From: Octopus vulgaris
Lineage: Eukaryota
Assembly: GCA_951406725.2 (NCBI GenBank)
Contig: OX597828.1
Coordinates: forward strand, 59,644,001-59,708,000
DNA: 64,000 nt
Direction: 5' to 3'
This document shows, in pieces, positions 9,317 through 53,390 of the stretch. The first letter of the stretch is position 1, and each line of letters starts with the position of its first letter. The position numbers and the translations under genes were made by a program. The notes under the pieces were generated by a model. The model was given only the letters and a program-made list of their open reading frames with translations. It had not been told where the DNA came from and made no database searches.

Positions 9317-10037
9317 ATATAAGAGAGTGGTCACTATGTGGCTCACTCTAGCACTAGAAATAGATCCAATAGGTTTCAACCACAAAATAAATGTTTCCCA
9401 TGAAGTGGAGTGAGCCACATAGTGACCACTCTCTTATATGTATTTATGTATAAAATATTATAATATATTATAAAATATTATAATAATCCAGGTTTCTCTG
9501 TGCATACTCGGTGTTGAATAGCGTTACTATTAAATTAGTATCTAATTCTATCACCCTTATTAATTATTATAATTATACTGCATTTATAAATAGTATGAAA
9601 GTTTGGCGCGCTGTTGGTATTTGAATTATAACGGTGAGTGTAATCGGCTGGACCGCACGCGTATTTATCGTTATGGTAAAAATCTGGCGTGCGATCGAGT
9701 TGATTATATTCGGATAAGTTTTGGCTGATAGCTGCAAGTGAATTGATGTGAGTAAAATTACATTTAATTCAATATTGTCCCAAAATATCTGTATTTTTGT
9801 TATTTTTATTTGCCCTGTTCGTTTGAGCTAACAATCGTGCTGATATATATTTTGTGGTTGAAACCTATTGGATCTATAGTGCTAGAGTGAGCCACATAGT
9901 GACCACTCTCTTATATGTATTTATGTATAAAATATTATAATATATTATAAAATATTATAATAATCCAGGTTTATCTGTGCATGAATAGCGTTACTATTAA
10001 ATTAGTATCTAATTCTATCACCCTTATTAATTAATTA
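9317..10037 (+). mobile_element. Non-coding element with inverted plus partial-tandem (A'-A-B-A) architecture in (TA)n
   Basis: 9317-9389 is the reverse complement of 9848-9916 (4-nt indel). Direct repeats 9408-9570 and 9885-10033 give a period of 477 bp. Confidence 0.8.
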
Positions 10038-10335
10038 TATGTGTATATATATATATATATATATATATATATATATATATATATATATATATATGTATAT
10101 ATATATATATATATATATATATATATATATATATATATGTATATATATATATATATATATATATATATATGTATATATATATATATATATATATGTATAT
10201 ATATATATATATATATATATATATATATATATATATTATATATGTATATATATGTATATATATATATGTATATATATATATATATATATATATATATATA
10301 TATATATATATATATATATATATATATATATATAT

Positions 10336-10707
10336 ACTTTATATATATTATTGGCCCAGGCCATATAATATGAAGTCTTTAGTCAGAATTTGGGCACTAT
10401 ATAGTAGAGAGTTATTGTTTACAGAGACATATCCGGGTGTAGGGGGTTTATCCGGGATTTCTTGAAGAAATCTGTCCAAAGACTTCTTGAACCCTATAGG
10501 GTCAGTTTCTGTTTTAATGTGTTTTGGTGTAATGTTAAAGAGAGCGGGGCCAATTGAGGTGAAATAATTGTGCCGTATTGTTGTTATGAGATGAGAGTGC
10601 GATTTTTGTTTTGGGCGGATGGCACGGGGCCCAAGCCTTGGATGTACCTTAAAGGTGATGCCAACATCATTTGGGCAATGCTGATGGAATATTTTCCACA
10701 TCATGCA
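10336..10707 (-). mobile_element. 3' fragment of the CR1/L2-group LINE (copy 3), scrambled 3' end
   Basis: Near-identical to 11285-11588; encodes [15 protein letters not shown]...PDKPPTPGY. Confidence 0.9.
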
Positions 10708-11255
10708 TATATATATGTATATATATATATATATACATATATATATATGTACATATATATATATATATGTATATATATATATGTATATATATGTATGTAT
10801 ATATATATGTATATGTATGTATATATATATGTATATATATGTATATATATATATGTATATATATATATGTATATATATATATATATATATATATATATAT
10901 ATATATATATATATATATATATATATATATATATATATATATATATATATATATATATATGTGTATATATATATATATATGTGTGTGTATATTTATATAT
11001 ATATGTATATATATATATATATATATATATATATATATATATATATGTATATATATATATATATATATATATATATATATATATATATATATATATATAT
11101 ATGTGTGTGTATATATATATATATATATATATATATATGTATATATATATATATATATACGTATACTTTGATACTTTGATACTTTGATAGGTTTCGGCCA
11201 TTATTGGCCCAGGCCATGTCTAACTTAATAGCACCACCTGGTGAAGTCTTTCAAG

Positions 11256-51537: not shown

Positions 51538-52707
51538 TCTCTTATTATAAAAGGCAGATTTTATCTGCCTCCCTTTGGGAGTTATACAAATCTACAATAT
51601 AGGATTTCTTCAATTACAATTTACCTACCATTTTTAAGAGTAGAATGCATCGCGTCATGCCAGGTCCAGTTTTTAAAATTTAAACTCCAATTAAGCAAAA
51701 TTTACAGAAAACTCACATTCTGGTGTGTGTGTCAAATGCTTTTCTTAGTCTGGTTTACACCACACGCAAATGCACACACACAGTGGGCAACGAATAAAAT
51801 GAAAGTAAATAGCGACAGAGTGATTTGAGGAACACTAAACTGAAAGTATTTAAACCACTACTCAAAAAATAAAAAAACACAGCAAACAGAAACAAATAAA
51901 TACATAACCATTTACTCCTCACACAATTTCTTGAATTAGAATTTACCTAAGATTTTTCAGAGTACTTCAGTGGGTGATGCCATAAAAAATTTCTTTCAAT
52001 TTTACCACCAATTAAGACAAAATTCGAGAAAACTCAATATTTTAACATATCACTCCGAAAGCATTGATGTACATGTGTGCGTGCGTGAGTGTGTGTGTGT
52101 CATTCCTCACACACACGCATACACATACATATACAACTACATACAACTACATACACATACAACTACATACAAACACGTGTGTGTTTGTTATTAGTAAAAA
52201 AGGCGCCAAAACTCAACTCACTTATCATTCCAACACATTTTCAAAGACACACGGACGGACAGAAAAGGTAAATTGGTTTTTATTTTACTCTGTATATATT
52301 TTATTATATAATATTATATATAGATATATGTATATATAATTGCAGTATGAAACAGTGTTTATGTATAAACAGACGACACTTATATATAGTTACCAAGCCG
52401 CCCGAATTTACCTATTCATATTTAAATGAGAATATCAGAGCAAATCTCTTTAGTACATTCGTGAAAATACGTATTATACTTCGTAAACACTTCAACTACA
52501 GTTTTGCACAAAAATCGAAGTGTAATTTTAATTCCGTGAATTATGGGAGATTTTTTTCCGAAATTTGTTCCTATTGTGTTTTCAAAATTTGTAATTCTGA
52601 CAAAAAATGGATACGAATTTCATTATATCAAGCAGCGAGTCAGAATTCGAAGGATTTTCTACTGAAGACCTTCATAAATCTAACTCTATGACTGAAAAAA
52701 AAAAGCA
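51538..52707 (+). mobile_element. Putative Helitron 5' portion joined to the downstream Helitron
   Basis: Begins A|TCtcttattataaaagg within a (TA)-rich minisatellite whose unit gcatgtatgtatgtacaagtatg recurs after 53103. Confidence 0.45.
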
Positions 52708-53103
52708 TCTTTATATAAGAGTGAAGTTGTGTGTCTGTCTCCTACGATTTAGATTCCTAACTACTCCCACATTTTGCGGTGCAGTTTAACCAAAAGCGGG
52801 TATCTTATAGTCGTGATTCATATCGAGCCCTTCTGGATATTAGCGTGCGTCTACGATGAGTCTACGATTTAAAAAAATTTACCATCATATTTTTCCATTT
52901 TAATGCATTTTTTCCCTTTTATATAAGGGAAGTAACTCTCTAAAAATATCTACGATGTGTCAACGATTTAAAAAAAAATTTACCTTAATTTTTTTTTCAA
53001 TTTTTAATGCATTTTTTTTGCTATTTTTTGGCTATAACTCTCTAAAAATGCTTACATAGTTATTTCCCTTACAAACCCGAGCAACGCCGGGCGATACTGC
53101 TAG
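52708..53103 (+). mobile_element. Non-autonomous Helitron-type element
   Basis: A|TCtttatata...cccgagcaacgccggg cgatactgCTAG|T. Confidence 0.8.
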
Positions 53104-53257
53104 TATATATATATATATATATATATATATATATATGCATGCATGTATGTATGTACAAGTATGTATATATATATATATATATATATATGCATGCATGTAT
53201 GTATGTACAAGTATGTATATATATATATATATATATATATATATATATATATATATA

Positions 53258-53390
53258 TTAATAATTAAGGATGCTACAAGTGGCACCAGCACGCTAAAAA
53301 TAGCACCCAGGAGACGACTGCAACCAGAAATTTTCACTGACACATATCCATTGAGCTCGGTTCCACTTAATTTTATTGTAGACAATAATA
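53258..53390 (-). mobile_element. Short insert in (TA)n carrying the shared CTA-TTTT-TAG/hairpin motif and CCTTAATTA terminus
   Basis: Minus strand tttctggttgc...ctgggtg-CTATTTTTAG-cgtgct-ggtgccac(tt)gtagcatc-cttaattattaa. Confidence 0.55.

What the first reader, a model, noticed from the sequence alone, without database searches (positions are those of the whole stretch)
9317..53390. Unnamed conserved structured motif in four hammerhead-less (TA)n inserts: candidate new RNA element or ribozyme
Seen: four elements with otherwise dissimilar sequence share one motif, read on the strand running toward their CCT(T)A terminus. A (9321-9389 minus; 9849-9912): ttttgtGGTTgaaacctaTTGGatCTA-TTTC-TAGtgct then hairpin agagtg..cactct. 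B (18566-18627): ttttgcGGTTaaagcttTTGGctgTTA-TTTC-TAGtgggt then hairpin gaatggcc/ggccgttc. C (19441-19495 minus): TTGAcgtCTA-TATC-TAGcatgtt then hairpin gactg..cagtc. D (53269-53330 minus): tttctGGTTgc...CTGGgtgCTA-TTTT-TAGcgtgct then hairpin ggtgccac/gtagcatc. The hairpin keeps its position and pairing while its sequence changes completely. In A, B and C the motif lies in the inverted arm near the fold-back point, where hammerheads sit in the 8.7-kb and 25.5-kb elements. Inference: a functional substitute for the hammerhead, either a self-cleaving motif or an RT/endonuclease recognition signal. I could not fit it to hammerhead, HDV, twister or pistol consensus by eye.
Basis: partly seen in the sequence, partly recalled or inferred. 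Interest (0 to 1): 0.85.

Follow-up and report, generated by a model that had tools for sequence, protein, structure and literature searches.

The report
Folded loading signal of octopus retrozymes
The motif is real but is only the front half of a larger RNA domain, predicted to fold and backed by paired base changes, that about a dozen or more families of short jumping elements carry downstream of a hammerhead ribozyme (not instead of one); it brackets the two places where the inserts end, so it likely is the signal that loads a Penelope-type reverse transcriptase.

Summary
The motif is present at A-D and is far above chance genome-wide (6,554 matches against 290 for the reversed pattern). 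'Hammerhead-less' is wrong: the window copies are 5'-truncated or decayed. Fuller copies of all four families carry a type I hammerhead core 92-141 nt upstream; B and C are tandem monomers of 484 and 505 nt. These are non-LTR retrozymes (non-autonomous Penelope-like elements) inserted in (TA)n. The motif is the 5' half of a ~170-nt domain. It pairs with a second box about 90 nt downstream (helices P1 and P2: 88.5% paired, 25 double changes, 0 of 500 shuffles), predicted to form a three-way junction with a conserved UAUWUY strand. Inserts end at two sites, one inside and one just after the domain, and 31 of 34 fold-back inserts have one of each: the Penelope 'tail' signature. Best reading (0.6): a template-recognition and priming platform for a Penelope-like RT-endonuclease. 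No autonomous element carrying the domain was found, and nothing was tested biochemically. No Rfam family matches, and I found no description in eight paper searches. Hydra-clade elements carry a different conserved motif at the same position.

The parts
9313..10041 (.). Insert A: fold-back insert between (TA)n runs; short inverted arm on minus, about 1.3 decayed monomers on plus
   Evidence: family search 763 candidates, 40 scored
9354..9383 (-). A inverted arm: 5' box (P1 5' strand, P1a, UAUUUC junction, start of P2)
9324..9349 (-). A inverted arm: hairpin P3; the arm ends just after it (short end T1)
9719..9785 (+). Decayed type I hammerhead of family A (core bases lost; intact in L054)
9854..9909 (+). 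A direct arm: 5' box with the 4-nt loop deleted, then P3; box 2 is also damaged in this copy
10019..10026 (+). A long end T2 (CCCTTA, then AT-rich bases, then (TA)n)
18392..18742 (.). Insert B: 5'-truncated fold-back copy of a 484-nt tandem hammerhead monomer; ends T1 (left) and T2 (right)
18403..18459 (-). B inverted arm: 5' box and P3, ending at T1
18571..18604 (+). B direct arm: P1 5' strand (GCGG), P1a, junction strand, P2 5' strand (18597-18604)
18606..18627 (+).
18678..18690 (+). B box 2: P2 3' strand (18678-18685) and P1 3' strand (18686-18690), changed in step with the 5' box
18692..18727 (+). B terminal hairpin P6; long end T2 follows
19432..19640 (.). Insert C: fold-back fragment of a 505-nt tandem hammerhead monomer; ends T1 (left) and T2 (right)
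19442..19488 (-). C inverted arm: partial 5' box and P3
19499..19630 (+). C direct arm: P2 5' strand, P3, box 2 (19579-19594) and T2 (19619-19630)
53258..53388 (-). Insert D: single 5'-truncated arm; 5' box 53294-53327, P3 53270-53287, end T1 at about 53258; box 2 absent

Best explanation
A to D are truncated copies of short hammerhead-bearing retroelements that lie in (TA)n repeats, and the motif is the 5' half of a covarying RNA domain that likely serves as the site where a Penelope-like RT-endonuclease, supplied in trans, binds the RNA and starts copying. Shown: non-coding tandem monomers (B 484 nt, C 505 nt); a type I hammerhead core, usually with a palindromic stem III, then a U-rich linker, then the domain; helices P1 (GYGG/CCRC) and P2 (UAGYRY/RYRCUA) change in step across families; inserts end either at the 3' foot of hairpin P3 inside the domain (T1) or at the 3' foot of hairpin P6 after it (T2), and fold-back inserts nearly always have one end of each kind. 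Predicted: P1, a short hairpin P1a and P2 form a three-way junction with an unpaired UAUWUY strand. Inferred: the protein would bind this junction, nick both strands of (TA)n, and prime two cDNAs at T1 and T2, whose joining would give the inverted insert with a one-sided tail of about 90-130 nt. The hammerhead would cut multimeric transcripts into monomers or circles and would not be needed for binding.
For: Tandem 484-nt repeats at 99-100% identity with a hammerhead; weak Rfam Hammerhead_1 hit, 22 bits against a cut-off of 34. Hammerhead-like core 92-141 nt upstream in at least one copy of 12 of 36 motif clusters, A-D among them (loose regex, one cluster doubtful). RNAalifold found P2 unprompted, with double changes in 4 of 6 pairs. 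P1+P2 over 18 sequences: 88.5% paired against 81.2% shuffled, 25 double-change cells against 7.4, 0 of 500 shuffles, slid registers 25-45%. Fifteen distinct matches not used to build the model give 88.8% and 22 cells (fitted to the model, several from families B, C and D). Both boxes together: 1,702 genomic matches against 0 for the control. One P1 pair is U-G in 11 and U-A in 6 of 18 sequences, which fits the hammerhead-sense strand. The B monomer folds with z = -5.94 and shows the junction. 31 of 34 fold-back inserts are T1+T2 (p = 3.8e-7 under 50:50), while single-orientation inserts end T1 18, T2 16, other 3 of 37. In the anole element PAc, RT starts at two adjacent internal sites that define the tail, the needed RNA spans +20 to +172 with the hammerhead cut at +26, and cleavage mutants still insert (PMC11167929). 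Hydra-clade elements have their own conserved motif at the same position, 58 of 77 loci forward against 4 of 77 reverse.
Against: No autonomous element carrying the domain was found. The model gave no pLTR hit in 29 Hydra-type and 29 Neptune-like loci, 7 longer loci, 30 GIY-YIG loci or 77 metagenomic Hydra-type loci; the nine hits inspected were separate inserts or noise. Much of the core sequence conservation was imposed by my search patterns. The families are related, so covariation counts are not independent events. P1 has only one pair with double changes, and 3 of 18 rows are misaligned there. P1 pairing probability is at least 0.8 in only 12 of 18. P1a is weak in several families (mean z -1.8), and folding z-scores do not separate sense (-2.5) from antisense (-3.0). 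The tail here is longer than the 30-40 bp described for PLEs (PMC8557442). No binding, priming or expression was shown.
Confidence: 0.6

Rival explanations
1. The domain recruits host proteins that stabilise, circularise or localise the retrozyme RNA, and the two ends are set by the hairpin-CCCUUA/AU-rich sites alone.
For: No autonomous PLE with the domain was found. Retrozymes accumulate as abundant circles in other animals (PMC7229834 passages). Conserved central domains of unknown function are known in SINE superfamilies (abstracts).
Against: The domain brackets both ends, and end choice is coupled within an insert, which a stability element does not predict.
Confidence: 0.14
2. The motif is a 3' splice site (pyrimidine tract plus UAG) of an intron that starts at a GUA-type donor just after the hammerhead cut; P2 hides the AG, so unspliced RNA is the copied form, which would explain intron retention in PLEs.
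For: The motif ends in UUUCUAG. Donor-like GGUAA or GUAUGU follows the cleavage site in B, C, D and several other families by eye. PLE repeats are known to hold introns next to the hammerhead (PMC4209133 passages).
Against: Families A, L147, L150 and L165 show no good donor. Some apparent donors are the hammerhead's own GUA cleavage triplet. The AG is paired in a covarying helix. Conserved P1 and the upstream UAU are not needed for an acceptor.
Confidence: 0.1
3. The three-way junction is a second, new self-cleaving or ligating ribozyme.
For: A compact junction with conserved unpaired bases in a mobile RNA; no Rfam match.
Against: A hammerhead is already present in each monomer. Insert ends lie about 35-60 and 110-175 nt downstream of the conserved strand, not at it. 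The conserved unpaired bases are few and U/A-rich.
Confidence: 0.06
4. The structure acts on the single-stranded cDNA (opposite strand), guiding fold-back or second-strand priming.
For: The antisense strand also folds well by z-score, and fold-back points often lie just upstream of the motif.
Against: G-U pairs in P1 and P2 become A-C mismatches on the other strand. Fold-back points vary widely: inserts of 207 to 2,398 nt.
Confidence: 0.05
5. The core is a double-stranded DNA site for a MADS-box factor such as MEF2 in an internal promoter or enhancer.
For: CTA-N4-TAG resembles the MEF2 site (consensus recalled, from no call); D matches it well.
Against: The fourth loop base is C in 13 of 18 sequences. 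The site lies downstream of the hammerhead. Its flank covaries with a box about 90 nt away.
Confidence: 0.04

Closest known systems
Metazoan non-LTR retrozymes (Cervera and de la Pena 2020, PMC7229834; Li et al. bioRxiv 10.64898/2026.07.22.740005)
   Same: Non-coding tandem monomers of a few hundred bases, low G+C, one type I hammerhead per monomer, proposed to move with PLE proteins.
   Different: Monomers are at or above the 170-400 nt first described, target (TA)n, form fold-back inserts with two defined ends, and share a covarying second domain that the passages read do not describe.
Penelope-like element pLTR and tail; PAc of Anolis (Frangieh et al. 2024, PMC11167929)
   Same: Order hammerhead, protein-required RNA, two internal RT start sites; AT-rich target; partial tandems and inverted 5'-truncated copies (PMC8557442 section 6).
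   Different: No ORF. The tail is about 90-130 nt rather than 30-40. The PAc start sites lie in an AC-rich stem-loop, and no conserved multi-helix domain is reported in the parts read.
Hydra-clade PLE repeats (Craig et al. 2021, PMC8557442)
   Same: Canonical hammerhead, (TA)n targeting, and a conserved RNA-like motif between hammerhead and end (seen here).
   Different: Their motif is a simple GCUC...GAGCACU hairpin, usually doubled; the model of this domain does not match it.
Telomerase RNA CR4/5 three-way junction (PMC4993307 passages)
   Same: Three helices with one short stem-loop, bound by an RT of the sister group of PLE RTs; analogy only.
   Different: As I recall the CR4/5 layout, the short stem-loop follows the long helix, whereas here it precedes it. 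P1a varies in length, whereas P6.1 is a fixed 4-bp stem with a 5-nt loop. No telomerase RNA family was hit in Rfam.
SINE superfamily core domains (CORE, V, Deu/Nin, Ceph, Meta)
   Same: A conserved domain shared by otherwise diverged non-autonomous families.
   Different: No tRNA-type head was seen in these monomers by eye (not scanned); they are tandem and hammerhead-bearing. Direct comparison with SINE domain sequences was not possible.

Membership tests
non-LTR retrozyme | tandem non-coding monomers of a few hundred bases | tested here: met
   B period 484-485, B' about 492, C about 505; A and D seen only as partial or deleted tandems
non-LTR retrozyme | type I hammerhead in the monomer | tested here: met
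   cores and stems seen in A (L054), B (L017), C (L036, L129) and D (L029, variant in L028); Rfam hit below cut-off
non-LTR retrozyme | self-cleavage of the hammerhead | not testable with these tools
   needs in vitro transcription
non-LTR retrozyme | expressed as linear and circular monomers | tested here: inconclusive
   only contigs of runs guessed to be RNA were available; they cannot tell circles from tandem DNA
non-autonomous Penelope-like element | partial tandems with an inverted 5'-truncated copy | tested here: met
   34 fold-back inserts bounded by microsatellite
non-autonomous Penelope-like element | tail present at one end only | tested here: met
   31 of 34 fold-back inserts have one short and one long end; the tail is longer than the published 30-40 bp
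non-autonomous Penelope-like element | sequence shared with the pLTR of an autonomous RT + GIY-YIG element | tested here: inconclusive
   not found in the PLE loci sampled; only a small part of the genome's PLE families was sampled
known Rfam RNA family | match at gathering score or a credible E-value over the domain | tested here: not met
   0 at gathering over the window; 8 loci at E up to 5 gave microsatellite and hairpin noise and a weak hammerhead hit
hammerhead, pistol, twister, twister-sister, hatchet, HDV ribozymes (for the domain itself) | class-specific core and topology | tested here: not met
   no Rfam ribozyme model hit the domain; activity untested
telomerase CR4/5 | fixed 4-bp, 5-nt-loop P6.1 stem-loop in a three-way junction | tested here: not met
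   P1a stems of 2-7 bp with loops of 3-8 nt in MFE folds against the description in PMC4993307
spliceosomal 3' splice site | spliced junction ending at the UAG | tested here: inconclusive
   no GT..AG skip in contigs of 4 runs guessed to be RNA; contigs drop rare forms
SINE superfamily domain | similarity to CORE, V, Deu, Ceph or Meta consensus | tested here: inconclusive
   motif string absent from 2 supplement files of PMC4824008, file 1 not searched; no SINE library available

The most novel reading that the evidence does not exclude
Each Penelope-like clade reads its own folded RNA key between hammerhead and terminus. This three-way junction is such a key: it loads an RT-endonuclease dimer and presents two priming sites, one inside and one after the domain, which produces the one-sided tail and the inverted inserts. 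It would be the first covariation-defined RT-loading domain of a Penelope-dependent RNA and a functional counterpart of the TERT-binding junction of telomerase RNA.
Probability: 0.35. Interest if true: 0.78.

Novelty: new variant of a known kind. Interest (0 to 1): 0.56.

Why it matters
How Penelope-like RTs, the sister group of telomerase, pick their RNA and why their inserts carry one-sided tails and inverted ends are open questions; the one reconstituted system maps a needed 150-nt region but no conserved fold. Here a dozen or more diverged, partly very young families define a fold by compensatory change and tie it to two exact end sites. That gives a ready substrate and a set of mutants, with several intact PLE proteins in the same genome as candidate partners. 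It also labels thousands of repeats in this genome that are probably left unclassified. The elements themselves belong to a known class, which limits the surprise.

Tried and rejected
Hammerhead substitute: rejected. Local CTA/TAG stem: 0 double changes. Partner hunt: a Hydra-type family with many open 727-codon frames, Neptune-like families, and the published Naiad_Obim 3' end read in the supplement do not show the domain. I first saw a likeness between the Hydra repeat and this junction, and dropped it when metagenomic Hydra loci showed their own motif. An HMM scan of held loci found only unlinked PLE fragments. A search with the L150 family gave 3,807 candidates, but flanks could not be fetched. 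The pattern scan of metagenome contigs found 0. Expression: no RNA holder on record was listed. Contigs of 4 runs guessed to be RNA cover all 29 bins, show a 'goes back 484' joint in 3 of 4 and no GT..AG skip; this is no evidence for or against expression, circles or splicing. The B rows for pairing probability were mis-indexed and were redone. A 64-codon frame in the B monomer is broken in a sister family and was dismissed. An Sm-site likeness (AUUUGUGG, recalled) was dropped because the GUGG is paired in P1. Pfam gave nothing for the Hydra-type protein. Earlier scan notes: nothing for this genome or sequence and one loosely related note. Paper searches that found no description of the domain; supplement string searches. 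The supplement of PMC7229834 could not be read, and Dfam, Repbase and the octopus repeat library were not available, so the families may already be catalogued there.
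Full report
Setting. The window lies in a 2.8-Gb animal genome rich in (TA)n. 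A stretch beside one locus (L139) closely matches the 3' end of the published Naiad_Obim repeat, so the genus is probably Octopus (inference). The (TA)n runs of the window hold many kinds of inserts: LINE copies, Hydra-type Penelope-like fragments and several hammerhead-bearing ends.

Observation. The second A copy has lost its 4-nt loop, and C is cut by its fold-back. Within the window there are 5 matches against 0.41 expected (circular). Genome-wide, two versions of the pattern give 6,554 against 290 and 2,489 against 0 for reversed controls. Rfam has nothing at gathering score in the window and nothing credible over the domain in 8 loci.

The elements. Each of A-D is one copy of a family: 763, 681, 22 and 113 first-look candidates, of which 40, 40, 22 and 40 were scored. 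B copies are 99-100% identical and sit in tandem arrays of period 484-485, so the family is young. C arrays have a period of about 505. Fuller copies carry a type I hammerhead core, with a palindromic stem III in most, a feature described for PLE hammerheads (PMC4209133 passages). The window's A copy has a decayed one at 9719-9785. Among 340 motif instances in the loci held (overlapping loci count twice), clustering of an 80-nt core at 78% gave 36 clusters; 12 have a hammerhead-like core 92-141 nt upstream in at least one copy. The other 24 are mostly single truncated or old copies, and some may be chance matches. No monomer inspected holds an RT frame. This fits non-LTR retrozymes, which are proposed to be non-autonomous PLE derivatives (PMC7229834 passages; bioRxiv 10.64898/2026.07.22.740005, parts 1-3 of 5). 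'Hammerhead-less' is therefore an effect of 5' truncation.

The domain. Aligning 18 sequences that reach the long end showed a second box about 90 nt downstream, which my first two patterns did not ask for. RNAalifold paired it with the motif unprompted. Counting 13 pairs, 88.5% of cells pair against 81.2% in shuffles, 25 cells change on both sides against 7.4, no shuffle of 500 reaches either value, and slid registers fall to 25-45%. Family B changes GUGG/CCAC to GCGG/CCGC, and changes both strands of P2. Fifteen distinct matches outside the training set give 88.8% and 22 cells (fitted to the model, partly the same families). Both boxes together occur 1,702 times against 0 for the control. 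Limits: the families share ancestry (0.47-0.53 identity among A-D over the domain); P1 rests on one doubly changed pair; P1 probability reaches 0.8 in 12 of 18; P1a is weak in several families; folding z-scores do not pick a strand. The strand is read from G-U pairs and from the hammerhead. The short CTA/TAG stem has no double change.

The ends. Distances from the motif to the next microsatellite cluster at 30-49 nt (49 of 110) and 110-149 nt (40 of 110). The short end T1 lies at the 3' foot of P3, inside the domain; the long end T2 lies at the 3' foot of P6. Both typically read CC(C)TT followed by AT-rich bases. Of 34 distinct fold-back inserts, 31 have one T1 and one T2 end. Single-orientation inserts split 18 T1, 16 T2 and 3 other, so independent choice would give about half; p = 3.8e-7. 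Most of the 34 are from families B and C. This is the one-sided tail and inverted copy described for PLEs (PMC8557442 section 6), with a longer tail. In the anole element PAc, RT starts at two adjacent internal sites that bound the tail, the RNA needed runs from just before the hammerhead cut to about 60 nt past the start sites, cleavage is dispensable, and the protein is predicted to be a dimer (PMC11167929, parts 1-2 of 4). The domain occupies the matching stretch.

Mechanism. Inferred: a multimeric transcript is cut by the hammerhead; a PLE protein binds the junction, nicks both strands of (TA)n, and primes at T1 on one strand and T2 on the other; the two cDNAs meet and join, giving a fold-back insert. 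An arm that ends at T1 lacks box 2 and so could not rebuild the domain on its own. I give this 0.6. Rivals are a host-protein or stability element (0.14), a hidden 3' splice site (0.10), a second ribozyme (0.06), a cDNA-strand structure (0.05) and a MEF2-type DNA site (0.04).

The main gap is the partner. The model found no pLTR match in 29 Hydra-type and 29 Neptune-like loci, 7 longer loci, 30 GIY-YIG loci or 77 metagenomic Hydra-type loci; nine hits inspected were separate inserts or noise. These searches return the best scores of a few dominant families, so most PLE families of the genome were not seen. The 30 loci (the same Hydra-type family) were not scanned with the model. The Hydra-type loci did show their own motif in the same place, GCUC-N-GAGCACU, usually doubled, in 58 of 77 loci forward against 4 of 77 reverse. 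That supports the idea that PLE lineages carry such keys, and argues against Hydra as the partner.

Novelty. The elements are members of a known class. The domain has no Rfam family and was not described in eight paper searches or in string searches of three supplements (one file not searched). One supplement was unreadable, and Dfam and Repbase were not available. For PMC13282606, PMC4993307 and PMC6765202 I saw passages only; for PMC8557442 passages, sections 6 and 11 and supplement hits; for PMC4824008 the search listing and the supplement search only. The likeness to telomerase CR4/5 is an analogy and fails the P6.1 test. Verdict: real, undescribed in what I could search, not a hammerhead substitute; new variant of a known kind, interest 0.56.

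Noticed in passing
L264-L340 (metagenome contigs); window 5047-5100(-) and 8781-8789(+): Hydra-clade Penelope-like elements carry a conserved GCUC-N4-22-GAGCACU hairpin motif about 40-90 nt downstream of the hammerhead, usually twice, with the (TA)n-abutting end often between the copies; 58 of 77 loci forward, 4 of 77 reverse. The octopus-type Hydra repeat has a variant. I did not search for it in print beyond one supplement string search. Worth a finding of its own.
   Followed up: partly
window 5047-5879; G000 family of L058-L086 and L234-L263: Fragments of a Hydra-clade element (DKT and RWK motifs) with many intact 727-codon frames in the genome, so probably active; hammerhead at window 5814-5843.
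   Followed up: partly
L204-L233; L210: A Neptune-like family with intact 781-codon frames; its repeat has stacked CCAAT and CRE-like boxes (labels recalled), a donor-like site and a non-canonical hammerhead-like core.
   Followed up: no
window 9602-9611; upstream of the hammerhead in B, C and L165 monomers: A TTTGGCGCG-type box, like an E2F site (recalled), is kept upstream of the hammerhead in several families and may be part of the internal promoter.
   Followed up: no
L088, L089, L094, L111, L163, L053: An old, decayed repeat without (TA)n flanks carries the same 5' box and a following hairpin; L089 is a 234-nt tandem and L163 a fold-back. It may be an older branch of the superfamily.
   Followed up: partly
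window 8722-8773, 19184-19216, 25512-25544 and 55345-55372(-): Further hammerhead cores in other (TA)n inserts whose downstream sequences do not match the domain model.
   Followed up: no
window 11160-15807 and 16086-18204: A near-full-length LINE with APE and RT frames and a short tandem 3' tail, plus a truncated sister copy, both inserted in (TA)n.
   Followed up: no
window 87-1010 and 3215-4138: A perfect 924-nt inverted repeat with 2,204 nt between the arms.
   Followed up: no
family C and relatives, e.g. L129 downstream of P3: A small hairpin with a UUCG tetraloop is kept inside the P2 multiloop in C-like families.
   Followed up: no
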